Part shown: positions 19,801-53,790 of the stretch, one piece after another
Layout of the letters: every line of letters starts with the position of its first letter
Numbering within the stretch: position 1 is the first letter of the stretch
Assembly (NCBI GenBank): GCA_051362555.1
Contig: CM120643.1
Span: 5,890,001-5,954,000, forward strand
Length of the DNA: 64,000 nucleotides
Source: Lingula anatina
Taxonomy: Eukaryota > Animalia > Brachiopoda
Reading direction: 5' to 3'
Program-made: the position numbers and the translations under genes
Notes under the pieces: model-generated
Databases searched by the model: none
The model's input: the letters and a program-made list of their open reading frames with translations, nothing else
What the model was told of the DNA's origin: nothing

Positions 19801-20412
19801 CCTTATTCAAAAGTCCTGTTACTTATTCGGTTACTTATTCCTTATTCGGTTACTTATTCCTTATTCGGTTACTTATTCAACTTTTTTATGTTTTTTTATG
19901 ATTTTGATGCTAGAATACCTGTTTCATCATACTAGCACCCCCTCTTCATCTAGATGACACCCTAAAATTGTTAAATATACCAATAAAAACACAAAATATA
20001 ACCCATTCCTTATTCAAAAGTCCTGTTACTTATTCGGTTACTTATTCCTTATTCGGTTACTTATTCCTTATTCGGTTACTTATTCAACTTTTTTATGTTT
20101 TTTTATGATTTTGATGCTAAAATACCTGTTTCATCATACTAGCACCCCCTCTTCATCTAGATGACACCCTAAAATTGTTAAATATACCACTAAAAACACA
20201 AAATATAACCCATTCCTTATTCAAAAGTCCTGTTACTTATTCGGTTACTTATTCCTTATTCGGTTACTTATTCAACTTTTTTATGTTGTTTTATGATTTT
20301 GATGCTAGAATACCTGTTTCATCATACTAGCACCCCCTCTTCATCTAGATGACACCCTAAAATTGTTAAATGTACCACTAAAAACACAAAATATAACCCA
20401 TTCCTTATTCAA

Positions 20413-20688
20413 AAGCCGCCAATACTTGTTGTCAATGTTTGTGATTATGTAGAGGCAGGACTGCACTCAAAGGATTTGAAGGCCTTTTCCCCCGTTGTAG
20501 AAGCACAGAATGTGAAATACATTCTTATTGGAATAACGATGCACCGAAAAGGACACTTTGTAGCCTGTATCAACTCAACGAAACATGGTTGGTTATATTA
20601 TGATGGGTTAAGAGGAGAGCTGAAGCCATTCCGACGAGAAAGTGTAGCTGGATGTGTGCCAGGGAATGTCATATATTTGCAGGAATAA
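20413..20688 (+). pseudogene. C-terminal fragment of a USP-like (peptidase C19-like) cysteine protease domain
   Basis: KPPILVVNV...KYILIGITMHRKGHFVACINSTKHGWLYYDGL...GNVIYLQE*; resembles the USP His box (YxLxG...H.xGHF/Y.A...W..YD...Y). No Cys-box half present. Confidence 0.65.
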
Positions 20689-28368: not shown

Positions 28369-28436
28369 CATAATGCTGAACAATCAAATGTCACTCTCAT
28401 CAACTTGTGAGGACTGACACTAAAAGAATCTGCAAA
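28369..28436 (-). pseudogene. DDC: DDC-like exon with PLP-binding lysine
   Basis: tag|FADSFSVSPHKLMRVTFDCSALW|gtaagt, 68 nt. Confidence 0.9.
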
Positions 28437-28776
28437 CTAAAACAATTGGAAACAATGTAAATTCTCCATGGGGCGCATGCCACTTGTACGGTTCCATTCT
28501 TGTTACACACCAGCGTCACTAATAAATCGGTTTACATAGTTATCGGTGACGGGCGGTGACATAAGACCTACCGGTCGCTAATACTTTTACCACCATTTAC
28601 TTTTAAAAAAGATAATTCTAAATACCGAGACCGAAAGTGTCATTTTATGTCCGCTTGTCATTCAAAAATCGATGAGAGGGAGTAACGTTAGGTGTGGGGG
28701 AGTTAAAACATATTAAGAGGGGGGGGGGGGGGGGTATTTCAATTCAATTCAAGTTACATTATTATTATTATCTTAC

Positions 28777-28938
28777 CTGTACCCCACTGAGCAGGTATCG
28801 AAAATCGGGTCAAATGGAAGCACTGCCAGCATACGAAGCATCTATATGGAGCCACATCTGCTCTCTGCTGCACACTGGGCCAAGTTCCTCAATGTTGTCA
28901 AAAGCACAGGAGAAGGCCGTTCCTAGCGTGGCACAAAC
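28777..28938 (-). pseudogene. DDC: DDC-like exon (nonsense codon)
   Basis: cag|[53 protein letters not shown]|gtaag. TGA at 28810-28812 where the family has Cys (ICPE). Confidence 0.93.
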
Positions 28939-29157
28939 CTGTTGTTTATCATAAATGAAGTATGGTAAGTAAACGTAATGTTCAAGATGTAAAACATACA
29001 ACGTTCAATACGCCATGGATTCGAAATAAATAAAGCACCAGGCTAATGTATGATTTTAATCATTAAAATGGTGTAATAATGTTTCAAACTGTTTATCAAA
29101 TGTTTACACCGATTAAAAAATTTATATGATCACGTTCGTGTGTGAACGTAACAAATT

Positions 29158-29325
29158 CAGGCCCGTAGCCAGCAAATGCAAAAGGGGGGTTCTTTTTCTG
29201 AAAAAGTGGACCTTTTACCATGAAATTTATGTATACCTAGATCAAATTTTACCCAAAACGGACCTTTTTCAGACAAAAGGGGCGGTTCTTTCGAACCCCC
29301 CGAACCCCCCCTGGCTACGGGCCTG
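29158..29325. mobile_element. MITE with CAGGCCCGTAGCCAG...CTGGCTACGGGCCTG TIRs
   Basis: Perfect 15-bp TIRs and 5-bp TSD aaatt; lies in a DDC intron. Confidence 0.9.
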
Positions 29326-29510
29326 AAATTCTAAATCCATTGCTTGGCTCGGTTAAAACACTCTACTGTTTCTGTTGGTGCATCACATAGCAGGGTCAAT
29401 CTGCTCACACCATCTCGATCATAACGTTATTACAGAATAACTTTTAAGTATTGCAATGCATCCACAACAATAAGCACAGACAATATATTTAACGAAGACT
29501 ATACACTTAT

Positions 29511-29654
29511 AAAGATAGGTATCAATCCCTCTGCCTTGCTTTTTTGTACAGCATGCGCCAATGTTTCGCCGCGTAGGGATTGTTGCTCGTCAGTGGGGAG
29601 CAGGACGATCTTTACTACTCCAAATAGGCCAGCACGTATCACTGAACTATGGGC
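29511..29654 (-). pseudogene. DDC: DDC-like exon (donor mutated GT>AT)
   Basis: tag|AHSSVIRAGLFGVVKIVLLPTDEQQSLRGETLAHAVQKSKAEGLIPIF|ataagt, 144 nt. Confidence 0.9.
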
Positions 29655-30165
29655 CTACAAATACATATATAGGGGAATATAAGCTTAATTGTATTAAAAA
29701 GGCAGAAAACTACCAAATGTACAGACAAAAAACAATATGAAAGAATTTAAATAAAATGCATTATATGCACAATAAAATACTAATTTCAAGAAAAAGAATC
29801 CAGTCAGGCTGGATGTCCAACACAACTTGAACACGGCGATAAAAAAAGAACTTAAAAGAAGAATGTAATTGACACTTTTGTGCAAGGTATGCAAGTGTGC
29901 CACCAACGCTACGGAGGCAATGTGAAGCATATTTTGGAAAGAACATGGCTTTTATGCCAAGCTACCGATATAATTAATACTTTGGGGAATGTTCGTGGGT
30001 AGACTGGAGTTTAAGTCCACCTTATTTCTTGAAATTTGCTGGACCTTCTTCTAATTTCATAAAATGATAAATGAGCTATGTTTTTTCTTGGGGAGGTTTT
30101 TAAAAGTCTGAATTGGGAAAGATTAGAGTCTTTACAGGATATTGGAGACTTGGAATGGTATATAC

Positions 30166-30301
30166 CTGATCTGAACAGTACCCCCACCATCTTTGCCATG
30201 ATGTCAGCCTCCGAAAGAGCAGGGTTTGCTTCCTTCTCTCTGAGAATGGCTTGATTCCTAGCAGCTAGCAAGCAAATCAATATGGTCTCGCTGGAGCTAC
30301 C
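30166..30301 (-). pseudogene. DDC: DDC-like exon (+1 frameshift)
   Basis: tag|GSSSETILICLLAARNQAILREKEANPALSEADIMAKMVG(+G)YCSDQ|gtat, 136 nt. Confidence 0.9.
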
Positions 30302-30734
30302 CTACAGATGTAATTTTTTTCATTATTTTACGCGTTAAGATGATTCAAGTTTAAGGACATCTTTTCTTTCTTTTTTTGAACTACATGTATAGGGCATATT
30401 ATCTGGCCGTTGGATTAGGGCCCAAAACGACGACGTTCACTATCTTTAGGAAAGATTTACTTTTTTAAACACATTCATTACTGTCCTTTTTTTCTTATGA
30501 TAAGAGTGTATACAATACCGGTAATTATATATATATATATCATGTGCTAAATCTTTAATTTTTCCAGAAAAGACATAAGCACCAACTAATTATAATTTCC
30601 CGTGATTGTATGTTCACAGACCGATGTCGTGATCAGACTGTCGTGAAATTGCCTTGTAATTTAGAGTCATCTTTATGACTCGTTGTCCAACCTTTGTATT
30701 TCAATAATATTATATACGTACAGTTTTTGTATAA

Positions 30735-30942
30735 TGTTATGACAGATAGGCAGACAAACAGACAGACAGATAGGCAGACAATTAACTTATCGTTAACAAT
30801 TAACTTTTGGATCACCACCAAAATCAAGTCTATAATGAAAACTCGTCCTCAGCTTTTTCCATTATGTTGCTATCAGTCAATCAGAAGAACAGACAAAAAG
30901 ACTTGGGGAACCAAAAACATTACCTCTTCGGCCGAGATAAAT
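30735..30942 (+). mobile_element. 3' remnant of a HINE/pearl-like element in a DDC intron
   Basis: (GACA)n-like tract and terminal aaaacattacctcttcggccgagataa hairpin. Confidence 0.5.
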
Positions 30943-31290
30943 ACAGATATAAACAATTGTTGAACAATTGCATCAAATAAAATAAGATGACAATCAATTT
31001 AAGTGTTTAAAGTGATATTTGGTGCACTGAGTACATCTAAAATGCATTTCAGAAGCCTATATTTTAAATACACAAGCGGGTCACTGTCACCTCTAAGTGT
31101 ATTAAGTTTCATCAAAACAATCATCTGTCGCTCAAGGTGTTTTGTCAAAAGACAATAAAATGTGATAATCAGTGTAACAGTTCCATATATGTTGTTGGCG
31201 AAACGCCACTTAATCAATTCAGTCTAAGTTGTCTACAATTTTGCCTCAAATATCTCAAATAATTTTTGGGTTCTAGATGACTGGTCTTAC

Positions 31291-31410
31291 CTGAATGACC
31301 CCGCCCCCTTTGCCTCCAGAGCAGAATAGAAACTGCTCTGGCAAATCCAGCATCTTCCCCAACCAGTCCATCATAATCATCTCCAGCACTGTGCATGCCG
31401 GATTGGCTGC
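31291..31410 (-). pseudogene. DDC: DDC-like exon
   Basis: cag|[40 protein letters not shown]|gtaag, 120 nt. Confidence 0.93.
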
Positions 31411-31733
31411 CTGGGAAAAGAACATAAGCCCGTGTTTTCCTGTTATTAATAAGAAAATAACAAAAAGGTCTTTGCTTCACCCTGAGTTTCAGAGGGCTGG
31501 AAACTCGCCTCATTGTGCGTGCTTTCAGCATGCATGGCAGGGACAAGCTGGTAACATATAGAGGTGAGTTTCAATTCACACATGGATCTCAGACCGCTTG
31601 ATTTAGATGTCTTGAAGAGTCTCATTTCTAATGGTATCGAACAATAAATAAAATACAAGTCAGTTTCCAGCCCCCCCCCCCAATTTTGTGAAATCTTGGG
31701 TCCTCCGGTGTACAGTAGAAAAAATCAGCTTAC

Positions 31734-31847
31734 CCAGGTAAATCCAAGACCACCCATAGCATCGGAGAGCATGTCGGCACAGATGGCAGCGTAGGATCTG
31801 ACTGAAGGGAAATAGCCATGGAACTGCGGGTGATTCCAGTGCGTTGT
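31734..31847 (-). pseudogene. DDC: DDC-like exon
   Basis: ag|TTHWNHPQFHGYFPSVRSYAAICADMLSDAMGGLGFTW|gtaag, 114 nt. Confidence 0.93.
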
Positions 31848-32248
31848 CTAGAGTATTGTTTGATTTAGATTAGACACAAAATATATAAATCGTGCCAAAA
31901 ATATAATATAGAGATTATTAACCATCAACTTCTTAGCAGAAATGTTACAAACAATATTCTATTTCATATACAACATTTTTGTATGATTATGATTTTGAAT
32001 TAGATTTCTGTGATTTAGCTGCCTTTTTCTCAAGTGAGGAAACCGACTAAAACGAAGCAAGTCAGATTCAATTAAAAAACAATCCTCTTTAAATTACAAC
32101 CCTTGTACACTAAACTATTGCTCATCTCTTAAAGACAGTAAAGCCAATATACTAAAAATCAACTGTATATTTTGCCATGTGTATTTTATATTTAGCCGCG
32201 TGGCGCATGCGCAAACGATAATTTACCTGTGTGCCTATAAGCACTTAC

Positions 32249-32445
32249 CCCAGGCATAATAACCCGCTCTACGTCACCAATAACGTCCTCCCAGGACTCA
32301 GCAGTTTCTGGGGCAGTTTCCGGAAGGAACTGGCGCTTATATCCGGCTATGCAGGATATACTGGATGATTCTGCACATTCTCTAAGTAATCAGCCACCAT
32401 GTCTACTATTTCTTTCCCACGAACACGGAACTCTGCAGCATCCAT
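32249..32445 (-). pseudogene. DDC: DDC-like first coding exon (frameshifted)
   Basis: ATG at 32445: MDAAEFRVRGKEIVDMVADYLENVQNHPVYPA* then, in another frame, GYKRQFLPETAPETAESWEDVIGDVERVIMPG|gtaagt. Coding length 197 nt is not a multiple of 3. Acceptor tttttcatag at 32461. Confidence 0.92.
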
Positions 32446-35400
32446 TTGGCTGTCAATTGCCTATGAAAAAATAACAAAGAGTAGCTTGCGTTTTGGTATC
32501 TATATCAGCAACAACTAAACTTTTTCAACGCTGTTTAAAAGGAAAGATCATGAAAGATGGAACATTGCAACATATGCGTTTTTCAGTCCAGGATACAACT
32601 ACAAGGATTTCAGAAAGAGGCGATAAAATATGAAGCAAGAGTAGTTAATTCTGGTAACAGGTACGGCTTACACGAGTTCAATGTTAAACTGTTTTTAAAG
32701 AGACTTAACGTCGGTCACTCGTTTGGCACGACGTTTCGGCCCTTCGCACGAGGACCTTGATTACATTTAAGAATCTATGAAGATACTCTTTTACGCGCTT
32801 ACGAATAGCATCTGTTTGTGACTTCTGTAACTACTAAATACCTTGAGGAAAATTCACAATAAATGTTCTCTTAAAACCAATGATCACATCAACTCATGAA
32901 TTGAACTTATTTCGTATACTGACCCCAATTCTAAAATTACCTGTACAAATCGCCAGTTTTCCAGAAAAACGCTAGAAAGGGGTACGCGTACAACCTCCTT
33001 CGACAGACAATCAACTGTGAAGGCAGAGGTTAGATTATTGTAGCACAAGGGTGCGTGAAGAAATTCATTTTGGATTTTGGTTTTGGATTACCCTCCACCA
33101 CAGGGTCACAGCTTGATTTTTTGCTAGGTATTCACAGATATGTATCTGGTTTAATTGACGGCAATTCCCTGCACTGTGTCAGAAAAGTCCACATAATATA
33201 ATATGAGGTCCTGGTAGGTGGTAATTTTGGCTTGGAACCGTGTTAACTGGCCTCGGTTGTCCTCGGGGAATTGAATAGCAAACATGGAATTTCCTAATTA
33301 GCTTTCAATTACCATACAGATATACACCTAACATAAATTTAAGCATAAATGATGTGGACTCTCACCACTATTTCAGCCTTATTATACACTAAGCATTTTC
33401 TAAACGCATTCCTTTACTGTGGAGAATCATATTGATGCATTTTGATACAACCAAAATGGCTTTAACAGTCAGAAAAATAATTTCCACTAAAACTGGCTCA
33501 TGGTATTGACGTACATGTATTTATGAGCTCATTACAAATTCTAGATGTTTTGCTGATTTTTTGCTGAACTCTGGTTGATTTTCCCCACAACAAGGAATAA
33601 CAAAGCTGATATAATTTGATTGTTGCCACAAAACCAAAAGAATAGCAAAAATCCCTATTAACCTATTTATTTGAATGGACATATCAGTGATATACAGGGT
33701 TTTACGCTTTCCATTATTAAGAAACAGAAATATTCAGTGTTCATCGACTAAATTAGGTTAACATAAACACTCATGTTTGCGATTTTGGAGTAAAAATTGA
33801 AAAATATGTTTCTCAAAGTTCTCCTTTCCCAGAGCACCAACGAACACGGTTTCAACGCCAATTTAATGACACTATTTACTACTCCAAAACCCTGCCAGCA
33901 ATTTTTCTAAAAAAATAGTTCATACTGCATTGTTGATAAAGCAAAATACTGCCTTTGTTTCAAGAAAATCTGTAATGAGGGGCTAATAACTCCATAACAA
34001 AAAATGACGGCACGGAACTGTTAATTCTAGGTGCTCTATTCCAACTCATTAAAGTCTTTATTGTGGGTTATTCCCAAATTGAAACGTTGCGCAACACTGC
34101 AAAATCGTTTCTAAAATCAAAAATTTATTTATTTACTTAACATTGTCTGGTTTTATGGAAGAAATCGGTATGAAAGTAATTACAAAAGAGTAAATCAAGT
34201 TTAGAATATAATTTTATTCAACTATCAAGTTAAATGATGACCAGTTACATTCAATTCCAATAGGATTTGCAAGTAATCATTAATGAATTACTATACGTAA
34301 ATGCAATGGATTAAAAAACGGTAGTTTTACTGAAAGTTTATATTTTCCATTCCCGTCTTTATCATCTCACAACGAAACGCAAATAGCCCAGCAATGTACA
34401 AGATAAACAAATTTACCAAAGTAATTCATACAGAAAGAGGCACTGAAGCCAAATAATGATGGTCAGAGGTTGGTACCAGATGCTCTCGGGCCGTGGGGAA
34501 AAACCCGTCTAAACCCTTCTTGGGGAATGCCGGGAAAGTGCCCACGCCCGGATAACAGTTTTTACAGCACCTTACAAGCTCAAGAATATCGTCCCGTTTT
34601 AGACAGCATGGCACGACTGAATAAACTTTCGTGACTACAAACTATTCTCTATATATACTATACAAGATAAACATATTTACCAAAGTAATTCATACAGAAA
34701 GAGGCACTGAAGCCAACCCGAGACATTAACTAGAGACTTAACACGAAACTAGTTTAAACTTTATCCAGGGGGGCAAAGCCATAAATAAAGTCGCTCAGTC
34801 CTGAAATTTCTAACGATAACATAAACAGACCATAAACAGATTCAAGTAATATGACCATAACTCGGGTATCTCAATGATTTAAACTAAACTAAGACATAAC
34901 TCTGGATAAAATACCTAAAACTATAAAATTTCTAAATTTTCATTTTGCCCTGAAATCGCCACTACCTATATGATACAAGCTGAGAATAAAGCAAGCTTGC
35001 TTCGAATTATTTCGCATCTCACATCACTGTTTGACCGTCCATGTAAGTTTCAATTTGAATTTGGTTGATCCGGAGAAAAGGTGCATATATGATGAAGTGG
35101 ATTTATTTGTCAAGTATAACACTTGAGAAAATCTGAATGTTAGTAATGTGATCTCTATCTTGAGAGATGATGGCATCTCTCAAGTAGAGCAGACTGTGCA
35201 AAAAATAATGAAATATTTTCACATGTAAAACATTTCATTGCAGATTTTGCACAGGCTATCAATGTAAAATCTCTCCATGTAAAAGCGTTTACATGAAGTC
35301 AGATTTTACAAAGATGTGAGGGTTTATTAGTAAGGTTAGTGTGCAGGTTAAGACCTTCTCAAATGCCTTACTGACAAACAACTCCACATCACCAAAAGCA

Positions 35401-37320
35401 CAAATTTCAGAAAAGACTACTGCACTAAGATTGAAACAAAACACAGACGACCATAAGTGGTGGAAATGCGAATGTTTTTGTGAGCATAAAACTACTTGCA
35501 TTTAGAATGTATACAGCAACTGGATATTCAATTAAAATCATTAACATGATGATTATTATTATATCTGAAGAGGTAGACTTAAAACATTTTTATACATAAC
35601 CACGCCTCATCCTATACAATTGGAATGCATGGAATTAAGAATGATCATTCAGACCTTCAGCCATTGTAATAAAACATCACTTACACAAGTGAAAAACAAA
35701 ACTTAGTGCAATTACACTCGACAAAAGTTTGTGACCAATGAAACCCAAATATTCTTATTATCCAAAAGCCCCAAGTCCATTACTAGTTTGTATTCCTATT
35801 ATACTCTGCATATTGCTCTCCATTTCCATTGCACATTCTCTATATTTGTTTGCAGAACAAGTTGTATCCTTCAAAACCAAGACTGCTAGGACGTCCAATC
35901 ATCAATGAAAAGTGGCTACAGGGGGCTCCTTGCTAGCGCTATAAAGCGTTTCACATCTTGGATATTTGGTCTACGGTTGAAGCTGTTTGCCTTCGGGCAT
36001 CATTTCTGGAAATCCCTTTTCGTAGCCTACAAATGAAATGTAATGTGTTCACTTAAAAGTTATTTCACCTTGAAATGTTACATGTTAAAATTGTTGGCTG
36101 TCCATGCTACTTTTCTTAAGAAAAGAAAAAATAATAATATATGATTGAATTATTTAATAACTAATTTAGACACTTGGCTATTAGTTAAAGGATGCGATGT
36201 TTAGGAATGTGCTGGGCGCTTTTGCCAATTCTGTATATACAGACACTGCTCTAAGATTATTATTCTGCGAATTTTAAAGGATATAGTCTTTGATCACAGT
36301 CCATAATAAGAAACAATACACTAATAATAATATACAAAAAAGTTAAGAACTGCTTTTCTTAAAGTTGTCGATCCCTAAGAACTTACAAACTTATCTAGCA
36401 AGAAGATCCCTCGCTCCTGAAGAAGTGTTTCATCTGGTGGTTTGGATGTTGCAATCGACATTTTTGGACACCTCCACTTTTGGTAGCCTGCAAATTTGAT
36501 TAATAATTTTAAAATGTAATAAAAGCCAACAATTGCAATACGAAATGTGTTTAAAAAGTTTAATGGGTTTGATAAAAAATTGATATCAAGAGTACTTTTG
36601 TCACAAACTCTGAAAAAACATATATTTTGACTTGCACTGGCGACCTTCACACGTCTGTGACACAATGGAGTAAGGCAAAATTTAGAGTTTTAACGACGGA
36701 AAAGGAACATTGCATTTGCTGTAACGGACCAGGAAAAACATCGATTGGGAGAGTGCTTAGATTCTACAAAAAGGAAGTGACTGGAGAACAAGAGGCATAA
36801 AGGAAGGAACGTGTTTTGCTTTCCCAAATAACATGAGTTACATGTACCTTTTAAGGCTTTCCATCTCAGTGAAACGTCACATGCTTCTGCTGTTCTCACA
36901 TACAGCCACCTTTATAAACAAACCATGGCAGGACTAAATCAGGCACCAATGACTGATCGAAATAAACAAATGTGCCGCTCTTCTTGCACTTCTTTTGAAA
37001 ACTGGGAACTAACAGGAGTTGCCATCACTGAGTTCTGTAAACAAACGAAAATGGAATAAGTTTTAAAAACCAAAGCAGTCTGCGTCCATTAAAATTGTTT
37101 GAACCAGTACATTTCTAGAATGTGTCAATTTTGTAACGTGGTTGATAGATTTTTCTACAAGTTTTCAAAAGAGCTTTAGACTTGATTTAATTTATTTCAT
37201 TAACTGTTAAATCACAATTTTAAATGACAAGGTCTTGTTAATACAAATATTAATGCAATACAGTCCATTCCTATTCAAATTTGTATTTGGACCAGTAAAT
37301 CCAGATTCAGACTTCTAGAT

Positions 37321-37645
37321 TTAAAGGGATAACTCTTCGTATGATATCTTTATTTCACAATAAAAGCATTGTGAACAGCTCATAGAAATATAATATATTG
37401 TTTTACCACAAAAACAGCAATTATAGCTATTATTCTGATATCTAAGCTTGTCTTTAGATCACGTGACTTCCATTGATGACTGTACTCTGTTATAATCTCT
37501 TAAGAGATTTTAACAAAAAACCAAACTTTAAAAAAAAAAAACGGACTAACTTTGAATAAAAAATGGATTCATTAACCCTTGGTAAGTATGGGAACATTGT
37601 TGTTTACTCCAGGAAAATTCATTTTTTGGCCAAAACGAAGAATTA
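37321..37645. mobile_element. Inverted copy of the Kolobok-like element at 46416-46753
   Basis: ttaaagggataactcttcgtatga...ttttttggccaaaacgaagaatta is the reverse complement of the 46.4-46.75 kb copy. Confidence 0.8.
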
Positions 37646-37789
37646 GGAAAGTAAGGCGGTCAAAACGGCCAGTAAGGTGAAAAGTTTATGGCACGGACTA
37701 CAACTAAAAGTAAATCATTTTAGTACATGTGCTTTCCCCAATAACACGGGTTACCTTTCAGGATTTTCCATCTCATTGAAACATCATAT

Positions 37790-38695
37790 GACAGGACTCG
37801 CTGGACGCTTCCCCATTGCAGTCACATCGTAGACGGACCATGGCAGGACTCGCTGGACGTTTCCCGAGTGCAGTCACCTCGTAGACGGACCATGGCAGGA
37901 CTCACTGGACGATTCCCCAGTGCAGCCACCTCGTAGACGGACCATGGCAGGACTCGCTGCACGATTCCCCAGTGCAGCCACCTCGTAGACGGACCATGGC
38001 AGGACTCGCACTCGCTGGACGCTTCCCCTGTGCAGCCACCTCGTAGACGGACCATGGCAGGACTCGCTGGACGCTTCCCCATTGCAGTCACATCGTACAC
38101 GGACCATGGCAGGACTCGCTGGACGTTTCCCCAGTGCAGTCACATCGTAGACGGACCATGGCAGGACTCGCTGGACGTTTCCCCAGTGCAGTCACATCGT
38201 AGACGGACCATGGCAGGACTCACTGGACGATTCCCCAGTGCAGCCACCTCGTAGACGGACCATGGCAGGACTCGCTGCACGATTCCCCAGTGCAGCCACC
38301 TCGTAGACGGACCATGGCAGGACTCGCTGGACGCTTCCCCAGTGCAGCCACCTCGTAGACGGACCATGGCAGGACTCGCTGGACGCTTCCCCTGTGCAGC
38401 CACCTCGTAGACGGACCATGGCAGGACTCGCTGGACGTTTCCCCAGTGCAGCCACATCGTAGACGGACCATGGCAGGACTCGCTGGACGATTCCCCAGTG
38501 CAGCCACCTCGTAGACGGACCATGGCAGGACTCGCTGCACGATTCCCCAGTGCAGCCACCTCGTAGACGGACCATGGCAGGACTCGCTGGACGCTTCCCC
38601 AGTGCAGCCACCTCGTAGACGGACCATGGCAGGACTCGCTGGACGCTTCCCCTGTGCAGCCACCTCGTAGACGGACCATGGCAGGACTCGCTGGC
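37790..38695. repeat. GC-rich 52-bp minisatellite, ~17 copies
   Basis: Unit cctcgtagacggaccatggcaggactcgctggacgcttccccagtgcagcca, period 52 (37831, 37883, 37935, 37987). It explains the overlapping repetitive ORFs in the track. Confidence 0.97.
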
Positions 38696-38750
38696 AACAA
38701 AGATTGGTCGAAGTAGCTGTAGATGTGGGCCCTCTTCTTGCAGTTGTGTT

Positions 38751-41250
38751 CTGTAAACAGAAATAAAAACGAGATTAGATTTCTTTTATTTCTAATCTCC
38801 ACTTCCAAAAAGAAAAGATTACATACCTTAAGGAGTGCAGTCGAAGTCCCACCGGTGGTGCTCATCATCTTCTATGTCCTGTAAACAGAAATAAAAACGA
38901 GATTAGATTTCTTTCATTTCTTAAATTCCACTTCCAAAAAGGAAAAAGATTACATACCTTATGGAGTGCAGTCGAAGTCCCACCGGTGGCGCTCATCATC
39001 TTCTATGTCCTGTAAACAGAAATAAAAACGAGATTAGATTTCTTTCATTTCTTAAACTCCACTTCCAAAAAGAAAAAGATTACATACCTTAAAGAGTGCA
39101 GTCGAAGTCCCACCGGTGGCGCTCATCATCTTCTTTGTCCTGTAAACAGAAATAAAAAAACGAGATTAGATTTCTTTCGTTTCTTAAACTCCACTTCCAT
39201 AAAGAAAAAGATTACATACCTTCAGGAGTGCAGTCGAAGTCCCACCGGTGACGCTCATCATCTTCTTTGTCCTGTAAACAGAAATAAAAAACGAGATTAG
39301 ATTCCTTTCATTTCTTAAACTCCACTTCTAAAAAGAAAAAGATTACATACCTTAAGGAGTGCAATCGAAGTCCCATCGGTGGTGCTCATCATCTTCTATG
39401 TCCTGTAAACAGAAATAAAAACGAGATTAGATTTCTTTCAATTCTTAAACTCCACTTCCAAAAAGAAAAAGATTACATACCTTAAGGAGTGCAGTCGAAG
39501 TCCCACCGGTGGCGCTCATCATCTTCTTTGTCCTGTAAACAGGAATAAAAAACGAGATCAGATTTCTTTCATTTCTTAAACTCCACTTCTAAAAAGAAAA
39601 AGATTACATACCTTAAGGAGTGCAATCGAAGTCCCATCGGTGGTGCTCATCATCTTCTATGTCCTGTAAACAGAAATAAAAACGAGATTAGATTTCTTTC
39701 AATTCTTAAACTCCACTTCCAAAAAGAAAAAGATTACATACCTTAAGGAGTGCAGTCGAAGTCCCACCGGTGGCGCTCATCATCTTCTTTGTCCTGTAAA
39801 CAGGAATAAAAAACGAGATCAGATTTCTTTCATTTCTTAAACTCCACTTCTAAAAAGAAAAAGATTACTTACCTTATAGGAGTGCAATCGAAGTCCCATC
39901 GGTGACGCTCATCATCTTCTATGTCCTGTAAACAGAAATAAAAACGAGATTAGATTTCTTTCAATTCTTAAACTCCACTTCCAAAAAGAAAAAGATTACA
40001 TACCTTAAAGAGTGCAGTCGAAGTCCCACCGGTGGCGCTCATCATCTTCTATGTCCTGTAAACAGAAATAAGAACGAGATTAGATTTCTTTCATTTCTTA
40101 AACTCCACTTCCAAAAAGAAAAAGATTACATACCTTAAAGAGTGCAGTCGAAGTCCCACCGGTGGCGCTCATCATCTTCTTTGTCCTGTAAACAGAAATA
40201 AAAAACGAGATTAGATTCCTTTCATTTCTTAAACTCCACTTCTAAAAAGAAAAAGATTACATACCTTAAGGAGTGCAATCGAAGTCCCATCGGTGGTGCT
40301 CATCATCTTCTATGTCCTGTAAACAGAAATAAAAACGAGATTAGATTTCTTTCAATTCTTAAACTCCACTTCCAAAAAGAAAAAGATTACATACCTTAAG
40401 GAGTGCAGTCGAAGTCCCACCGGTGGCGCTCATCATCTTCTTTGTCCTGTAAACAGGAATAAAAAACGAGATCAGATTTCTTTCATTTCTTAAACTCCAC
40501 TTCTAAAAAGAAAAAGATTACATACCTTAAGGAGTGCAATCGAAGTCCCATCGGTGGTGCTCATCATCTTCTTTGTCCTGTAAACAGGAATAAAAAACGA
40601 GATCAGATTTCTTTCATTTCTTAAACTCCACTTCTAAAAAGAAAAAGATTACTTACCTTATAGGAGTGCAATCGAAGTCCCATCGGTGACGCTCATCATC
40701 TTCTATGTCCTGTAAACAGAAATAAAAACGAGATTAGATTTCTTTCAATTCTTAAACTCCACTTCCAAAAAGAAAAAGATTACATACCTTAAAGAGTGCA
40801 GTCGAAGTCCCACAGGTGGCGCTCATCATCTTCTTTGTCCTGTAAACAAATAAAAAACGAGATTAGATTTCTTTCATTTCTTAAACTCCACTTCTAAAAA
40901 GAAAAAGATTACTTACCTTAAGGAGTGCAGTCGAAGTCCCACCGGTGGTGCTCATCATCTTCTATGTCCTGTAAACAGAAATAAAAACGAGATTAGATTT
41001 CTTTCATTTCTTAAATTCCACTTCCAAAAAAGAAAAAGATTACATACCTTATGGAGTGCAGTCGAAGTCCCACCGGTGGCGCTCATCATCTTCTATGTCC
41101 TGTAAACAGAAATAAGAACGAGATTAGATTTCTTTCATTTCTTAAACTCCACTTCCAAAAAGAAAAAGATTACATACCTTAAAGAGTGCAGTCGAAGTCC
41201 CACCGGTGGCGCTCATCATCTTCTATGTACTGTAAACAGAAATAAGAACG
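38751..41250 (-). repeat. Tandem array of 19 x ~130-bp units, each a ~76-80-nt intron plus a 52-nt exon
   Basis: Minus-strand unit: gtatgt...ctaat...tttttatttctgtttacag|GACATAGAAGATGATGAGCGCCACCGGTGGGACTTCGACTGCACTCCTTAAG|gtatgt (some copies gtaagt). Example exon 38827-38878, intron 38751-38826. Confidence 0.92.
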
Positions 41251-41590
41251 AACTCTAATAAAAAAAATAAACCTGGAACGCATGCAATAATGCAATGACA
41301 CTACGACTAGCCCAGCAAAAAGCAAAAAGCAAAAAGGTGAAGTATCCTCCGAAGATCCCTGAGCGACGATTCCTCGTGTGGAGAAGCGAAGGTTGTAGCT
41401 GGCCAGCTTAGAGAAACGCCGAATCCACTGTCTAGACGTCTGCGTGTGCAAGGAACAATATGTCGAAGAGCGATGCGTTGACGTAGAATGAGGAAAGATT
41501 CGGAGAAATGCGTGTCGACTCCTGTGTCCTTTGTGCTTGATACAGGACGCAGCACACGACGTCCTTCCTGTTGCTCCAGATCTGTCCGCA

Positions 41591-41642
41591 GTTGAGTGAA
41601 CGCACTTTCAAAATTCCGCGCTTTTATACCTTTAGTCACGTG
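41591..41642 (-). promoter_or_regulatory. Core promoter: E-box, TATA box, initiator
   Basis: Minus strand reads CACGTGAC (41642-41635), TATAAAAG (41628-41621) and TCACTC with its A at 41597, 31 nt from the first T of the TATA box. Confidence 0.6.
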
Positions 41643-42469
41643 GTGGCGTTCCTGTTGTCACCACTAGTCAACTTGTTCATAGGGGATGGTCTTTGATAGT
41701 GATACGCCAATTTGATTAAAATATCTTAAAGACATAAATTTTATTTTATATTTTCTATTTTGATTTTTTTGTTTATCATTTCATTTTATGGTAAGAGTAT
41801 TAAGTACTAAGCAGTGACCTCGAAATGTAACAGACAAAGTAGATGACAATTTCTGAGCAACATATTCTCTCCCCAAAATTATGATAGGCACGATGTCGGT
41901 TATACTGGAAGCTGTGAACTTCTCGCAGGCCACTATATTGTGCGTGTGTATTCGAGCACTGATCCAAAATGTGGATGACGTAATAGGGCGTAGAATGACT
42001 GCATTTTCGAGGTTCTGATTGTAGCGAATTGAAGTGAGTCATTTGAAAGTACGCTGGACTGGACATGTACATCCACCTCAGTTTTCTAAAACACATTTTG
42101 TAATCAAGAAATTAAATGAAAATAAGTTATTAGGTTTTACGAATAGAAAGAATAGCAGCAGTAAGTCATATGAAAAATCTTGATTAACTTCTACAAGGCA
42201 GAAGAAACGAATGATTTTATTTTTGTATAAAAAACATCTATTGATTTAGGCAATAATTAAGAACGGGTGCCTTCCTTTTTGGCTTCAGGTGACCAGTACT
42301 CTTATGTCACTGGCTTGAGTAGAGAAAAAACAGAAAAAAGATAATAAATACGAATAATAAGATAAAAAAATTTAAAAATGAATTTTTTCTCATTTGTACG
42401 TTTACTTTATCCATTTTAAACCATAGCTGGATTTTACACTTTTTAATATGCGTTTTAACATTGTTATAA

Positions 42470-42700
42470 GTCTCAGTGCTCACTGGCATCCTTTCTCATC
42501 TCTCTGGAGAGCATACAACCAAAGTTGCCGAAAACTAGAGTTTACATGCTAATAGGCCAGTTGCTCATTATCAGTGCTTCATGGTCGGGCACACAACAGT
42601 TCCATTTGTGTGTTTTCTCAGTGAGGTGGTCTCTGACTCGACTCTACCTAAAAATCGAACTCCCGACTTGCCTCGCCTTCCACGAGAACACTCGCTGATT
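42470..42700 (-). mobile_element. Degenerate tRNA-derived SINE remnant
   Basis: Minus strand has a B-box-like gggagttcga and ggttgtatgctctccagagag, resembling a conserved central SINE domain (Nin/Deu type). Confidence 0.45.
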
Positions 42701-43540
42701 CTCAATGTGTAGGTCCATTTAAGAATTTAAAACAGGAGAAAGAATTGTTTATCCAAGTGGAATTTACTTAAATCAGTCTAGCTACTTAAATCGCTGCAAA
42801 AAATAATTACTAGATTTATCTGTTCTGACATAAAAACAAACAAAATGTAAACCATCGTTATTGTAGTTCGCTGCTCCATCTTGCATTCTCCAATCGATCT
42901 AGGTTATTTCTACTAAAGCACAAATGCAAGAAGTGAGTATGATGTCTAACGTCTCAGAAAATGTCTGTGTTTATGTTCATTTTAAATGCCGCAATATAGA
43001 TTGCGGCTACCTCCGCGGTGTCACCTGGCTTTTAAAAACTGAAAAAAAAATTGTGACGTCTTTTGCTGCGGGTCATTATTTTTAGTTGTTTGATGTTTTT
43101 GTAATATTTTAGCCATACAAAGAATCTTCAATAACATCTTTGATTAGCTAGACGATAGGCAGGACACACTCAATTGTTTTAGACAAAACACGACAAAACC
43201 GCGTTCTCATGGAAAGTAATTTGCAAAACCTTAGTATTACCAGGCATTTAAAAAATATACTTGAGGTTGAGAACAATATTTGTTAGTAAAATAAATGTGC
43301 TTCTCGTAATACCTCTTTTTTATACGGATTTTTTAAAATTTTTGTTAGTATTAATAACGTGCGAATATTACCCAAAAGGGTTGTTATTTTAAAAACCTCT
43401 TTCTCCGAATACGATAACTCTATACTAGCAAGGCATGAATCGTAAGATGTTTTCATTGTTTACACAAAAGCTTGGTTTATCACTTTCTGTTACAAAAGGT
43501 ATTTAAAAAAAGGAGATTTCGCCCCCCCCCCCCCCCCCTC

Positions 43541-46415: not shown

Positions 46416-46753
46416 AGTCATAATAACTCTTCGTTTCGGCCAAAAAATGAATTTTCCTGGAGTAAACAACAATTTTCCCATACTTACCAATGATTAATGA
46501 ATCCATTTTTACATTCAAAGTTAGTCCCTGGTTTTTTTCTAAAAAGTTTGGTTTTTTGTTAAAATCTCTTAAGAGATTTTAACATAGTATAGCCATCAAT
46601 GGAGGTCACGTGGTCTAAAGACAAGCTCAGATATCAGAATAATAGCTATAACTGCCGTTTTTTGTGGTAAAACAGAATATATTATATTTCTATGAGTTAT
46701 TCACAATGTTTTAATTGTGAAATATAGATCTCATACGAAGAGTTATTATCCCT
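46416..46753. mobile_element. TTAA-targeting non-autonomous element (Kolobok-like) in a DLD intron
   Basis: TTAA|AGtcataataactcttcgt ... acgaagagttattatccCT|TTAA; inverted copy at about 37321-37645, fragment at about 17200-17320. Confidence 0.8.
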
Positions 46754-47075: not shown

Positions 47076-50000
47076 AAGCGGTCAAATGTACAGACAAAAA
47101 ACAGAAAATAAAGATGCAAAAAAGGTCATTTTGTCAATTTTGATGCAATAATAAATAATGCTTATAATAGCACTGTCAGTCAACACTGAATTATAATCAT
47201 GCACAACAGTTTAAATGGTCAATAACATGAGCAGACCCAGAGATATTTTCTGACAGTATTCCAAAGTATCTATTTTGATCCATCCTCCATTTTGATGGAC
47301 TTCCAACAGGAAAAAAATAAATACCAGTCAATATAAACTTAATAACCTGACTGTCCTCCGGAAGACCCAGAAGATGGTCTCAATCCACCCCTTCAATAAG
47401 ATTACAGTTTCAGGACCATGAGAGTTCAAATTCACATGATGAAAGTCTCAATATTTGAAAAATGATGACAGTGCATAAATTAATATTACATAAGTAACAT
47501 AATGTTTAAAGACATAAAAAAAACAATCCAACTACTTATGTGGAAATACAGAAATGTCAGAGCCTCAGGCCGATGAGAGTTAAAAGTCACAAATGCAAGT
47601 GTTTGAGAAAAAATTATAAAGGAAAACATAACAAAACTAGAAAAGCGCTCCGAGAGTGCAGACCTCTGCCAAGGCAGCAATTGTTGATTATTATTGATTA
47701 TTGTCCTCTTTGGCCCACTTCTGACAGTTCCTGAAAATTTCATCAAAATCGGTCCATAACTTTTTGAGTTATGTTGATGACAGACAAACAAGGGTGAAAA
47801 TATAACCTCCTTGGCAGAGGTAAATATAATTCCAATGAAGCTGCTATTCAAACTTTTAATCTTTGAGTTTGATATATATAGGCCCATATTTGATATATAT
47901 ATAGGCCCATAAGTCACAACTTAAGAAAAGCACAAAACAATAATGCACAAAATAGGAGACTACCAATTCTGATGCAATAATACATTATGTTTAACTGCAC
48001 AGTCAACATCAAATTTTAATTTTGCACAGGTAACACCGACAAAAGTAAAATCATAAGGCTTCAGGCCCATCAGAGTTCAAGTTTATACTTAGAAAGTGCC
48101 AGAATGAGAAAAATGAAAATTTCACACAAAATTGCATAAATTCATTAATAAATGATAACCCAATTGACCTGGCTTTCTAATTTGAACTGCATGCCAATCC
48201 TAAAAATCATACTTATGAGTTAAATATAATAATAAGTAGCACAGTTTTCTTTTCATAATGTTTGCAGTAGCAGTGCAAAAAGATTATTGTCAATTTTGAT
48301 GTCACATTACATAATAAGTTATAGAATAATTTTCACCAATTTTTGATTATTGACTATAAATAGCATGGACATGTAGAAAGTTTGATTACCATTCGGCTTC
48401 ATGTCCATGGGAGCTCTGAGTCCCACAATGAATATGCCAAAAAAGATAATGAATATTTCACTAAAATGTATAACTTCCAGAAAAAGAAGCCAATTAAACT
48501 GCTTTTCCAACTCGGGCTGCATTTTAGTCCTGTGTTTCTTTTTTGAAAGTTTGAAAATCATAAGTAACATGGTTTTCCCATAATGGTCATCATGGCAGCA
48601 GCACCAAAAACTGTGTTTTCTTCTATTTTGATGCAACATTACATAATGCTTAATGGCATAATACATCAGTTTTTAATAATAAAATATACGTGCCATGGAT
48701 TTTCAGAAAATATGACTAGCAAGGGTCTTCAAGCCCGTGGAGGTTTTAAGTCGCACCTTGAAAATGCCAATAAGTGAAAAAATTAACTTTTCACAAAAAA
48801 CTGTTAAATTGCCAGAAAAATTTACCAAACAGACTGCGTTGCCTACTGAAGCTGTATGTTAGACCCATGTTTCTTTCCTGTAAGTTTGAGAACAGTAAGT
48901 GACATGATTTCCCTTAAATGGTCATCATAGAAGCAGTGCCCAAAATAGGGGTTTCTTCAAATTTTGATGCAACATTACATAATCTTTAACAGCATAATGA
49001 CCATCAAATGTTATTAATAAAATATAAGTAACATGAACATTCAGAAAATGTGACAAGCAAAGGTCTTCAGGATCATGGAACTTTTAAGTCACACCTTGAA
49101 AATGCCAACATGTGAAAAATTAAATTTTCACAAAAAACTGTTTGACTGCAAAAAACAGACTGCATTGCCTACTGAAGCTGTATTTTAGTCCCATGTTTCT
49201 TTCCTGTAAGTTTGAGAACAATAAGTGACATGATTTTCTTTAAATGGTCATCATGGGAGCAGTGCTCAAAATAGGGGTTTCTTCAAATTTTGATGCATTA
49301 TTACATAATGTTTAACAGCATAATGACCATCAATTTTTAATTATAAAATATTTGTATCACAGATATTCAGAAAATGTGACTAGCAAAGGTCTGCAGGCCC
49401 ATGAAACTTCAAAGTCACATCTTGAAAATGCCAAAATGTAAACAAGACAGTACTGTTCTGAAATGGGTTTATTTCCATTTTTAACACTTTTTCAACATAA
49501 AACAAAATAAACATTTTACTGCCATTTTTATATGACCAACTAAGAAAATTGATTAGATGGGAAAAGTATCAATAGAACAGTGTTAAATGTCCAATTTCCT
49601 CCATTCTGAGATTCTGAACATAGTGGATGATTGAATCTGACAAACTGCAATGATATGAGTTTATTTCCATTTTTGACACTTTATTACACAATACATGATA
49701 TTAAGTTTACCATCATTTTTACATAATCAACTAACAATGTTGTAAAGATGCAGGAAATATCAAACAAACACTTTTATGTATCTTATTAGTTCAATAATGA
49801 GACTGTTAACATGCCTAAGAATTAAATCTGAGAAAATTTGAAAAAACAGTATAACTTCTAAAATAATAGCCAGATTATGCCGATTTTCTAACTCAACCTG
49901 CGTTTTAGTAAGATTGACCACTCCTGTGAGTTTCATGACGATTGGCCCATCTGTTTTTCTTATATTGTGTTAACAATGTTGCATATATGTTGAAAAAAGT

Positions 50001-50380: not shown

Positions 50381-52420
50381 TCTGTGATAAGCTGATCAGT
50401 TGACTGTGTCAAATGAAAAGTGTCTTTTTGTGACAATATATTTGGGAAAACTGAAATTTACATTGAAAAGACTGGCAAATCCAAGGACTTCAAATAGTAA
50501 AACGTTAATAATTTTGTCAAATCTATTCCAGTGTTTCTGAAATTTGTACAAATGATGCTTAACAACAATAAAAACCTGTTACAAGCTGATCAAATGACTG
50601 TGTTTAATGAAAAGTATCTTCTTTCGACAATATCCTTGAAAAAACTGAAAATTACACTGAAAAATCTGGCAAATTCCATGGCTTAAAATAGTTAAATGTT
50701 AATAATTTTGCAATGTGATTATAAAATAAAATAGCAAATGTGATGATTTGAGGTTGTTTGTGTAGGAGGTTGCAAATTACCTATAACTATTATCTGGAAA
50801 ACAATATATACCCAAACAAGACTTCTCCTTACTATCAATGCCAGATGCAGATTACTCCTTACAATGGGTTTCTGGAATGGGTTGTTGTTATCACAGTATT
50901 TGACAATGTCCTAAATCTTGCCACATATCATGTATTGTACACATGGATAAGACATAGTGCTGCTCTTGATGCTGTCTTTCACTGCCAGCTTTTTCATGGT
51001 AAGGGTACTCTGGAAAAAGAACAATATAACTGAAAAAAATGAAATTATATTGAAAAGACTGGCAAATGCAATGACTTAAAATAGTTAATCGATAATAATT
51101 TTGTCAAATCTAGTCCAATATTTCTGAAATTTGTACAAATGATGCTTAACAACAATAGAAATCTGTGATAAGATGATCAGTTGACTGTATCTAATGAAAA
51201 GTGATTTTTGGGACAACAAATTTGGGACAACTGAAATTTACATTGAGAAGACTGGCAAAACACAGGACTTTAAAATAGTTAAACGTTAATAACTTTGTCA
51301 AATCTTGTCCAGTATTTCTGAAATTTGAATAAATGATGCTTAACAACAATAAAAATATGTGATAAGCTGATCAGTTAGACTGTGTCTAATGAAAAGTGTC
51401 TTTTGGGAACAATATATTTGGGAAAACTGAAATTTACATTGAAAAGACTGGCAAATTCCAGGACTTTAAATAGTTAAATGTTAATAATTTTGACAAATCG
51501 TGTCCAGTATTTCTGAAATTTGTACAAATGATGCTTAACAACAATAAAAATCTGTGATAAGATGATCTGTTGACTTTATCTAATGAAAAGTGTTTTTTGG
51601 GACAACATATTTGAGACAACTGAAAATTACACTGAAAACGCTGGCAAATTTCATGCCTTAAAATAGTTAAATGTTAATCCTTTTGACAAAACTTGTCCAG
51701 TGTTTCTGAAAATTGTCCGGAATCTTGCCACTTGTCATGTATTGTACACATGGAGAAGACATAGTGCTGCTCTTGGTGCTGTCTTTCAGTGCCTGCTTCT
51801 TCATGGTAAGGGTACTCTGGAAAAAGAACAATATAACTGAAAAATCTAAAAAATTACATTGAAAAGACTGGCAAATCCAATAACTTAAAATAGTTAAACG
51901 TTAATAATTTTGTCAAATCTAGTCCAATGTTTCTGAAATTTGTACAACTGATGCTTAACAACAATAAAAATCTGTGATAAGCCGATCAAATGACTGTGTC
52001 TAATGAAAAGTATTTTCTTCAGATGATATATTTGAGGAAACTGGAAATTACACTGAAAACACTGACAAATCCCATGACTCAAAACAGTTAAACGTTAATA
52101 ATTTTGAAAAATATTGTCCAATGTTTCTGAAATCTGTACAAATGATGCTTAACAACAATGGAAATCTGTAGTAAGCTGATCAGTTGTCTGTGTCTTTTTT
52201 TAAGTGTCAAGTTTATTGGAAATTGATAATCAGAAAAGAGAGAATTAACCAATTTGAAAAGAAATATTTCAATATTGCAATGTATCATTTACTCTCAAAG
52301 AAAACAGCAAATGTAATGATTTGAGTTTGTTTGTGTAGGAGGTTGCAAATTACCTATAACTGTCATCTGGAAAACAATATATACCCATACAAGACTTCTT
52401 CTTGCTATCAATGCCAAATG
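50375..52420. repeat. Second array of the same ~178-bp satellite and module
   Basis: Same monomer and module (50758; partial copies at about 51720 and 52330), same orientation as 11640-13992. Confidence 0.9.
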
Positions 52421-53255: not shown

Positions 53256-53790
53256 AGTATAGTCCTATGCCTCCTAGCACAGTGTAGTAATCTGGAGTCA
53301 TTGTGTTCCATTGTGGCAGTATAGTCCTGTGCCTCCTAGAACAGTTTAGTAGTCTGGAGTCATTGTGTTCCATTGTGGCAGTATAGTCCTGTGCCTCCTA
53401 GAACAGTGTAGTAGTCTGGAGTCATTGTGTTCCATTGTGGCAGTATAGTCCTGTGCCTCCTAGAACAGTTTAGTAGTCTGGAGTCATTGTGTTCCATTGT
53501 GGCAGTATAGTCCTGTGTCTACTAGAACAGTGTAGTAGTCTGGAGTCATTGTGTTCCATTGTGGCAGTATAGTCCTGTGCCTTCTAGTACAGTGTAGTAG
53601 TCTGAAGTCATTGTGTTCCATTGTGGCAGTATAGTCCTGTGCCTCCTAGTACAGTGTAGTAGTCTGGAGTCATTGTGTTCCATTGTGGCAGTATAGTCCT
53701 GTGCCTCCTAGTACAGTGTAGTAGTCTGAAGTCATTGTGTTCCATTGTGGCAGTATAGTCCTGTGCCTCCAAGTACAGTGTAGTGTGGAG
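53256..53790. repeat. 62-bp minisatellite, ~8.5 copies
   Basis: Unit agtatagtcctgtgcctcctagaacagtgtagtagtctggagtcattgtgttccattgtggc, period 62. Confidence 0.95.

What the first reader, a model, noticed from the sequence alone, without database searches (positions are those of the whole stretch)
38751..41250. A satellite whose monomer is a complete intron plus micro-exon: 19 tandem splice cassettes
Seen: each ~130-bp unit read on the minus strand has a strong donor (AAG|gtatgt or gtaagt), a CTAAT branch-point motif about 25 nt before a pyrimidine tract and CAG acceptor, and a 52-nt GC-richer exon. Splice signals are kept in all 19 units, while substitutions fall elsewhere. The array lies downstream of a well-spaced TATA/Inr and its last intron joins a unique exon at 38750. 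Inference: the spliced RNA carries ~19 x 52-nt repeats, with copy number tunable by exon skipping, and could also yield circular RNAs by back-splicing. The 52-nt length breaks frame, so it does not behave like an ordinary repeat-protein gene. Recent amplification alone could also explain the preserved splice sites.
Basis: partly seen in the sequence, partly recalled or inferred. Interest (0 to 1): 0.85.

Follow-up and report, generated by a model that had tools for sequence, protein, structure and literature searches.

The report
Non-coding gene of repeated spliced exons
A 131-base repeat in what is likely a lamp-shell (Lingula) genome is 19 head-to-tail copies of one tiny exon plus its intron inside a likely non-coding gene; RNA from related copies is made and partly spliced at the predicted sites, but the array likely grew by ordinary tandem duplication and no function is shown.

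Summary
The array is real: 19 minus-strand units, each a 52-53-nt exon plus a 76-80-nt GT-AG intron. RNA reads show minus-strand transcription from the TATA/Inr. Exact exon-exon joints: 9 spliced against 59 intron-kept in run X1, 6 against 5 in X7. Most reads are only 90-95% alike, so they come from related copies or another population, not provably this locus. The 'unique' exon is not unique: it holds a second, transcribed 52-bp array and has an older duplicate. Three Lingula anatina RefSeq models at other loci share these downstream exons, read in mixed frames. There is no conserved ORF, Rfam match or hairpin. Unchanged splice sites fit recent amplification (P 0.08-0.37). Verdict: a likely long non-coding RNA of a Lingula multi-copy family, built like mammalian repeated-exon host genes but with no small-RNA cargo found. 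Exon skipping and circles are untested. This scan noted the same design before in two fungi and one animal.

The parts
41594..41642 (-). Pol II core promoter: E-box CACGTG (41642-41637), TATA (41628-41621), Inr with predicted +1 at 41597
   Evidence: Sequence; the only E-box+TATA pair in the window, though 9 TATA+Inr pairs occur; X1 RNA cover rises from about 41580
41340..41597 (-). Leader exon, CpG-rich (o/e 1.11 against 0.61 for the window), no ATG; 3' edge unresolved
   Evidence: Strand-specific depth up to 33 in X1 with several haplotypes; lack of ATG is not significant (188 of 2000 shuffles)
38751..41229 (-). Array of 19 units: exon (52-53 nt) + intron (76-80 nt); exon 1 = 41229-41178, exon 19 = 38878-38827, intron 19 = 38826-38751
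   Evidence: spliced and intron-kept joints in related RNA
37755..38750 (-).
   Evidence: Donor at 37755 used in 5 X2 reads with 5 starts; acceptor at 38750 predicted only
37788..38694 (-). Second tandem array inside exon A: 17.3 copies of a 52-bp unit, not detectably related to the 52-nt array exon
   Evidence: back-52 joints X1 76, X2 79, X7 22, X4 0; relatedness 203 of 500 shuffles
37035..37754 (-). 720-nt GT-AG intron between exons A and B, holding a palindromic MITE-like insert (about 37329-37645)
   Evidence: Skip joint 37034-37755 in X2; insert copies at 46424-46673 and 17200-17324
36848..37034 (-). Exon B (187 nt), an older duplicate of exon A without the internal array
   Evidence: 72-76% identity to both ends of exon A; acceptor used in X2; donor predicted
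36387..36487 (-). Predicted exon C
   Evidence: Splice signals read by eye; low minus-strand cover, no joint among the rows shown
34385..36026 (-). Predicted exon D and 3' region; AATAAA at 35328, 35107 and 34218; end unresolved
   Evidence: Strand-specific cover of 3-25 in X1 and X2 with fixed differences; signals

Best explanation
The array is 19 tandem exon-plus-intron units inside a likely non-coding, Pol II-type gene of a likely Lingula-specific multi-copy family, and RNA from related copies is transcribed on the minus strand and partly spliced at the predicted sites. The array likely grew by unequal crossing-over that copied one small exon with its whole intron, so each unit kept working splice sites by descent, not by shown selection. 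The same gene also duplicated exon A/B long ago and amplified a 52-bp unit inside exon A. The fully spliced RNA would carry 44 AUGs in the array, each opening a short frame (13-65 codons, bar the last). The first frame stops ahead of about 20 exon junctions, so the RNA would likely be degraded by nonsense-mediated decay, leaving intron-kept RNA as the main form. SHOWN: anatomy, strand, splicing of family copies, lack of a long ORF. INFERRED: growth mechanism, decay, lack of selected function, expression of this very copy.
For: Anatomy. Strand: X1 depth 121-140 on one mate orientation against 2-4 on the other over the unit. Splicing: 'back 52' joints at the exon edges, X1 9 reads (8 starts) and X7 6 reads (3 starts); exon A to B joint in 5 X2 reads. 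Non-coding: stops in all three frames of the spliced array. ORFs starting in it are 13-65 codons except the last (190 codons, into exon A). No Pfam family reaches its cut-off for those frames or the three RefSeq models. The models run through several frames of the 52-bp unit. Family: 3 Lingula anatina models on contigs of 36, 346 and 687 kb; several leader haplotypes in reads. Turnover: 15 distinct units of 19, with identical sets 5=11, 7=12=14 and 8=15, mean identity 94%. The array exon resembles exon B (7 of 2000 shuffles) and the start of exon A (34 of 2000), not exons C or D. Splice-site invariance is not significant.
Against: Only 9 of 223 X1 reads and 2 of 51 X7 reads are 95% or more alike, and reads carry near-fixed letters absent from all 19 exons (positions 17 and 41). 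So expression of this locus is not shown. No single-copy gene was covered to tell paralogues from a divergent population. X4 gave 2 reads and X5 none. The spliced share is a lower bound, since 52-nt pieces about 90% alike are harder to lay than 130-nt pieces. An intronless DNA copy of the exon elsewhere is not excluded (table 5b not given; no genome held). The spliced share differs between X1 and X7 (Fisher p=0.005), which could be regulation, library type or a different copy. A strong core promoter and a family-wide unit fit a selected function as well. The RefSeq models show the downstream exons only, not the 131-bp array.
Confidence: 0.55

Rival explanations
1. Architectural nuclear RNA: the 19 donor, branch and acceptor sets (or the 52-nt exons) are the function, binding splicing factors or another protein many times over and holding the RNA in the nucleus, like FIRRE RRD or chicken LL2R.
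For: Intron-kept RNA is abundant in a poly(A) library (59 of 68 joints in X1). Donors match the recalled U1 consensus at 8-9 of 11. The splice-site variants seen (GTATGT/GTAAGT, CTAAT/CTGAT) stay splice-compatible. There are two repeat arrays in one RNA. Precedents: PMC4820808 and 10.64898/2026.03.19.712899 (passages).
Against: No localisation or binding data. Splice columns are not over-conserved. LL2R has excess donors over about 160 kb; here donors and acceptors are 1:1 over 2.5 kb. No fold beyond shuffles.
Confidence: 0.17
2. Small-RNA host or precursor: each unit yields a piRNA, mirtron or snoRNA, as in the C19MC and SNORD115/116 host genes or the mosquito tapiR satellite.
For: Same gene design as C19MC-HG and the SNORD hosts. 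A satellite can yield a functional piRNA. The exon holds a C-box-like ATGATGA (motif recalled).
Against: No Rfam match over the gene's arrays; 3 weak hits in 31000-43000, E 0.91-3.9, all far below cut-off. Introns fold no better than shuffles (z 0.94 and 0.06). The C-box-like word lies in the exon, not the intron. No small-RNA run was listed, so piRNA output is untested.
Confidence: 0.12
3. The whole 7-kb unit is a non-autonomous mobile element with its own promoter, inserted between the DLD-like and DDC-like genes, and the arrays are internal repeats.
For: Multi-copy family, apparently lineage-restricted; self-contained promoter; sits between two ordinary enzyme genes.
Against: The 5' region has no second copy in the window, so no LTR pair. 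No transposase or RT frame was evident among 68 window ORFs (only 12 stretches scanned). It keeps many spliceosomal introns. Ends could not be compared without the genome.
Confidence: 0.1
4. Splicing-built peptide array: each AUG-AUG in exon n opens a 30-codon frame that stops in exon n+1, so the spliced RNA encodes repeated peptides.
For: The 30-codon frames exist only after splicing, and the leader has no ATG.
Against: The three near-fixed read differences in the exon all change residues in this peptide (worked by hand). Two 53-nt exons and a TGA variant break the pattern. Lack of ATG is not significant (188 of 2000).
Confidence: 0.04
5. The array is part of the 5' UTR of the downstream DDC-like gene.
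For: Same strand; the first DDC-like coding exon has an acceptor just before its ATG.
Against: Depth over that exon's bin is at most 0.23 in 4 of 4 runs, while family RNA is present in X1 and X2; no joint to it among the rows shown. The exon has a stop and a frameshift.
Confidence: 0.02

Closest known systems
Mammalian repeated-exon host lncRNAs: C19MC-HG (PMC2691840, passages), SNORD115/116 host RNAs and rat Bsr/RBII-36 (PMC3413130, passages)
   Same: A non-coding Pol II transcript whose repeat unit is one exon plus one intron; splicing gives a chain of near-identical exons.
   Different: Those introns carry miRNAs or snoRNAs, and C19MC units are about 400-700 nt. Here the unit is 131 nt, no cargo was found, and the gene belongs to a multi-locus family in an invertebrate.
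FIRRE lncRNA with exonic local repeat RRD (PMC4820808, passages)
   Same: Many exons of one lncRNA are copies of one repeat (7 of 13 human exons, 11 of 23 mouse exons).
   Different: RRD is a shown nuclear-retention signal bound by hnRNPU, and FIRRE repeats are local to one locus. Here exons and whole introns are head-to-tail, family copies lie at other loci, and no function was tested.
Amphioxus 'mirages' (PMC3087553, passages)
   Same: Minisatellite-like tandem copies spanning an intron-exon boundary (150-160 bp in globin genes), turned over by unequal crossing-over. The array exon here weakly resembles the start of the next exons.
   Different: Mirages copy one boundary in coding genes and do not disturb normal splicing. 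Here each unit has both donor and acceptor and is spliced in family RNA.
Chicken LL2R tandem-repeat RNA (10.64898/2026.03.19.712899, abstract and passages)
   Same: One-strand transcript of a tandem repeat rich in splice sites, incompletely spliced.
   Different: LL2R spans about 160 kb, has over threefold more donors than acceptors, starts at a retrotransposon promoter and is shown to nucleate condensates.
Lingula anatina RefSeq models LOC106164805, LOC106153014, LOC106173768 (uncharacterized)
   Same: Share exon A/B sequence and the 52-bp unit (38-74% protein identity).
   Different: They are annotated as proteins, likely spuriously; they show fewer 52-bp units and no sign of the 131-bp array in their translated parts.

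Membership tests
Repeated-exon lncRNA (C19MC-HG / SNORD host / Bsr design) | Repeat unit = exon + intron with intact splice signals | tested here: met
   19 of 19 units
Repeated-exon lncRNA (C19MC-HG / SNORD host / Bsr design) | One-strand transcription and exon-to-exon splicing | tested here: met
   Shown for related copies: 9 reads in X1, 6 in X7, none in X4 or X5; not shown for this very locus
Repeated-exon lncRNA (C19MC-HG / SNORD host / Bsr design) | No protein-coding frame | tested here: met
   short peptides not excluded
Small-RNA host gene (C19MC, SNORD115/116, Bsr) | miRNA hairpin or C/D snoRNA inside each repeated intron | tested here: not met
   No Rfam hit on the array; intron z-scores 0.94 and 0.06
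Small-RNA host gene (C19MC, SNORD115/116, Bsr) | Discrete mature small RNAs | not testable with these tools
   No small-RNA run among the 9 listed
FIRRE-type local-repeat lncRNA | Repeat confined to one locus | tested here: inconclusive
   Downstream exons occur at 3 other annotated loci; the 131-bp unit has no other copy in the window; no genome held
FIRRE-type local-repeat lncRNA | Exonic repeat causes nuclear retention through a bound protein | not testable with these tools
   Needs RNA-FISH, fractionation and pull-down
Mirage repeats | Copies of one intron-exon boundary of a neighbouring authentic exon | tested here: inconclusive
   Exon part resembles exons B and A (7 and 34 of 2000); intron part does not resemble the intron before exon B (177 of 1000)
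Mirage repeats | Copies are skipped in the mature RNA | tested here: not met
   Unit-to-unit spliced joints seen
LTR or other mobile element | Terminal repeats, target-site duplication or element proteins | tested here: inconclusive
   No second copy of the 5' region in the window; ends not comparable without other loci

The most novel reading that the evidence does not exclude
The splice cassettes themselves are the working part. A Lingula lncRNA family uses a dense array of 19 minimal introns as a multivalent spliceosome-binding scaffold, and switches between intron-kept and spliced forms by tissue or stage (14% spliced joints in X1 against 55% in X7). That would make it a cargo-free, invertebrate counterpart of FIRRE and LL2R.
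Probability: 0.12. Interest if true: 0.72.

Novelty: new variant of a known kind. Interest (0 to 1): 0.4.

Why it matters
It shows that a DNA satellite can be a stack of working minimal introns and exons, and that the repeated-exon lncRNA design of mammals also arises in a lophotrochozoan, apparently without small-RNA cargo. Nineteen near-identical 78-nt introns with natural donor and branch variants form a ready test bed for how splice-site choice, intron retention and RNA decay act on repeats. It also flags three RefSeq protein models as likely spurious. If neutral, it is a clear example of intron gain by tandem duplication and little more.

Tried and rejected
No whole genome is held, so copy number and element ends are open. 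No RNA holder was listed by index; 9 same-species raw-read runs were offered, and 5 of the 9 were laid (X1, X2, X4, X5, X7), each read to 6-25%. X5 laid nothing, which is no test. Only one array unit and one 52-bp unit were laid, never a whole array. The unit pattern had 0 matches in metagenome contigs. Longer fused proteins: none among 4974 candidates. Leader ORF homologues: none among 8 candidates. HMMER on 1.84 billion proteins with P0001 gave 5 hits: 2 Lingula models and 3 repetitive proteins at E 3e-6 to 1e-4, which I judge chance. Weak Pfam hits on the 52-bp frames (best DotD, E 3e-6, 27.9 bits at a cut-off of 27, but 0 passing stretches) are a repeat-summing effect. A shared 52-nt motif between the two arrays was rejected (203 of 500). 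An origin of the array intron from the intron before exon B is not supported (177 of 1000; whole unit 16 of 2000, while a DLD control reached 19 of 500). Mirtron or snoRNA cargo was not found. The RLRGG word in the 52-bp frames resembles a ubiquitin tail (recalled) but reads CLRGG or SLRGG in the paralogues, so it was dropped. Four exon differences in reads fall on third positions of a frame closed by stops here; too few to call a lost coding frame. The DDC-like gene gave no reads, so it could not serve as an identity control. No earlier scan notes by place or sequence. Literature: 9 searches listed no description of this locus or of such an array in an invertebrate lncRNA. PMC13121700 had 0 hits for six terms. 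No supplements were read, and the library lacks most subscription papers.

Full report
OBSERVATION. TRF finds an array at 38747-41251, period 131, 19.2 copies, 93% matches. On the minus strand it parses into 19 exons (17 of 52 nt, 2 of 53 nt; 41229 to 38827) and 19 introns of 76-80 nt. All have AAG|GTATGT or AAG|GTAAGT donors, CTAAT or CTGAT branch motifs and TGTTTACAG acceptors. Exons are 51% GC and introns 27%. Mean pairwise identity is 94%; 15 of 19 units are distinct, and units 5=11, 7=12=14 and 8=15 are identical, which points to recent multi-unit duplication. With 29 of 134 columns variable (slightly over-counted by one misaligned unit), the chance that GT+AG are all invariant is 0.37, and 0.08 for ten splice columns. 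Intact signals are therefore no evidence of selection.

SURROUNDINGS. Upstream lie an E-box, TATA and Inr, with 31 nt from TATA to the predicted +1 at 41597, and a CpG-rich leader. The array exon resembles exon B (7 of 2000 dinucleotide shuffles) and the start of exon A (34 of 2000), but not predicted exons C or D. It does not resemble the 52-bp unit (203 of 500); the equal length appears to be coincidence. The gene lies between a DLD-like gene (PF02852) and a DDC-like gene (PF00282), all on the minus strand.

ORGANISM AND FAMILY. A frame of exon A finds 3 proteins among 2370 candidates, all uncharacterized Lingula anatina models on separate contigs. They share exon A/B sequence and the 52-bp unit and run through its different frames. 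A search of 1.84 billion proteins adds only 3 weak hits to repetitive proteins. So the window is likely Lingula (inferred), and the gene has relatives at other loci. No genome was held to count them.

RNA. One unit plus the 5' flank was laid on 4 runs: X1 223 reads, X7 51, X4 2, X5 0. In X1, depth over the unit is 121-140 on one mate orientation against 2-4 on the other, which means minus-strand RNA by the tool's usual convention. Cover of the leader starts near 41580. Joints that go back exactly 52 at the exon edges are spliced exon-exon reads: 9 in X1 (8 starts) and 6 in X7 (3 starts). Joints that go back 130 keep the intron: 59 in X1, 5 in X7, 2 in X4. Intron/exon depth is 0.92 in X1 and 0.45 in X7, and the joint ratio differs between them (p=0.005). 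The spliced share is likely under-counted, because short diverged pieces lay poorly. Against a locus-level claim: 177 of 223 X1 reads are only 90-95% alike and 37 are under 90%. Reads carry near-fixed letters absent from all 19 window exons, and the leader shows several haplotypes. Reported heterozygosity for L. anatina is 1.6% (PMC4595640, passage), so the reads come from paralogues or a divergent population. No leader-to-exon-1 joint was listed. A second lay, 28400-37842 on X1, X2, X4 and X7, shows the 52-bp array transcribed mainly on the same strand (X1 76, X2 79, X7 22, X4 0 back-52 joints) and the exon A to B splice in 5 X2 reads. One-strand cover continues to about 34385, and there is almost nothing on the first DDC-like exon. 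Seventeen joint rows were not shown.

CODING AND STRUCTURE. The spliced array has stops in all frames and 44 ATGs. Its ORFs are 13-65 codons, except one of 190 codons from exon 19 into exon A. No Pfam family is convincingly matched. Rfam gives nothing on the arrays. Introns, exon, units and leader fold no better than shuffles (z 0.06-2.2).

MECHANISM. Most likely (0.55) this is a non-coding Pol II gene that repeatedly duplicated its own parts. One round copied a small exon with its whole intron, so every unit can be spliced. The spliced RNA, full of short frames ahead of many junctions, would likely be removed by nonsense-mediated decay (established pathway; not tested), which would leave intron-kept RNA dominant. 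Rivals: a splicing-factor scaffold (0.17), a small-RNA source (0.12), a non-autonomous mobile element (0.10), a peptide array (0.04) and a DDC 5' UTR (0.02). Skipping and back-splicing cannot be told from linear splicing in these reads.

KNOWN KINDS. Repeated-exon non-coding transcripts are described for C19MC and the SNORD115/116 and Bsr hosts (PMC2691840, PMC3413130; passages), where the introns carry small RNAs; that feature is not met here. FIRRE has repeated exons with a shown retention function (PMC4820808; passages). Amphioxus mirages copy one splice boundary and do not disturb splicing (PMC3087553; passages). Chicken LL2R is a splice-site-rich repeat RNA that gathers splicing factors (10.64898/2026.03.19.712899; abstract and passages). 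The mosquito tapiR satellite yields a piRNA (10.1101/2020.01.15.907428; passages). Nine searches listed no account of this locus; supplements were not read. This scan's own unchecked notes report the same design in two fungi and one animal.

VERDICT. A real, transcribed and partly spliced exon-intron satellite in a likely lncRNA family: a new, cargo-free, invertebrate variant of a known design, with no evidence yet of selected function. Interest 0.40.

Noticed in passing
window 32445-32250 (-), further exons near 30300 and 24640: DDC-like gene (PF00282) whose first coding exon has an in-frame TAG and a frameshift and almost no reads in 4 runs: a likely pseudogene or an assembly error.
   Followed up: partly
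window 46916-44912 (-): Last coding exons of a dihydrolipoamide-dehydrogenase-like gene (PF02852 for two exons; name by eye).
   Followed up: partly
window 37329-37645; copies at 46424-46673 (91%) and 17200-17324 (82%): Palindromic MITE-like element with very deep RNA cover on both strands in 4 of 4 runs; a second such pile-up lies near 29158-29325.
   Followed up: no
window 36487 and 36026 (-): Predicted exons C and D start with similar sequence (by eye), suggesting one more old exon duplication in this gene.
   Followed up: no
window 41212, loose ends in X1: 7 reads join a different 5' piece to the middle of the array exon; it looks intermediate between the array exon and the start of exon A, perhaps from a paralogue.
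   Followed up: no
window 20353-20688 (+): 111-codon frame with a weak match to Peptidase_C98 (E 0.00085, below cut-off), next to a 207-bp tandem repeat at 19650-20415.
   Followed up: no
window 34716-34661 and 34452-34397: 56-bp direct repeat (98%) in the predicted 3' region of the gene.
   Followed up: no
window 12516-13991, 51031-51716, 48516-49439, 53256-53784: Other tandem arrays (periods 193, 194, 326, 62); the first two share a consensus.
   Followed up: no
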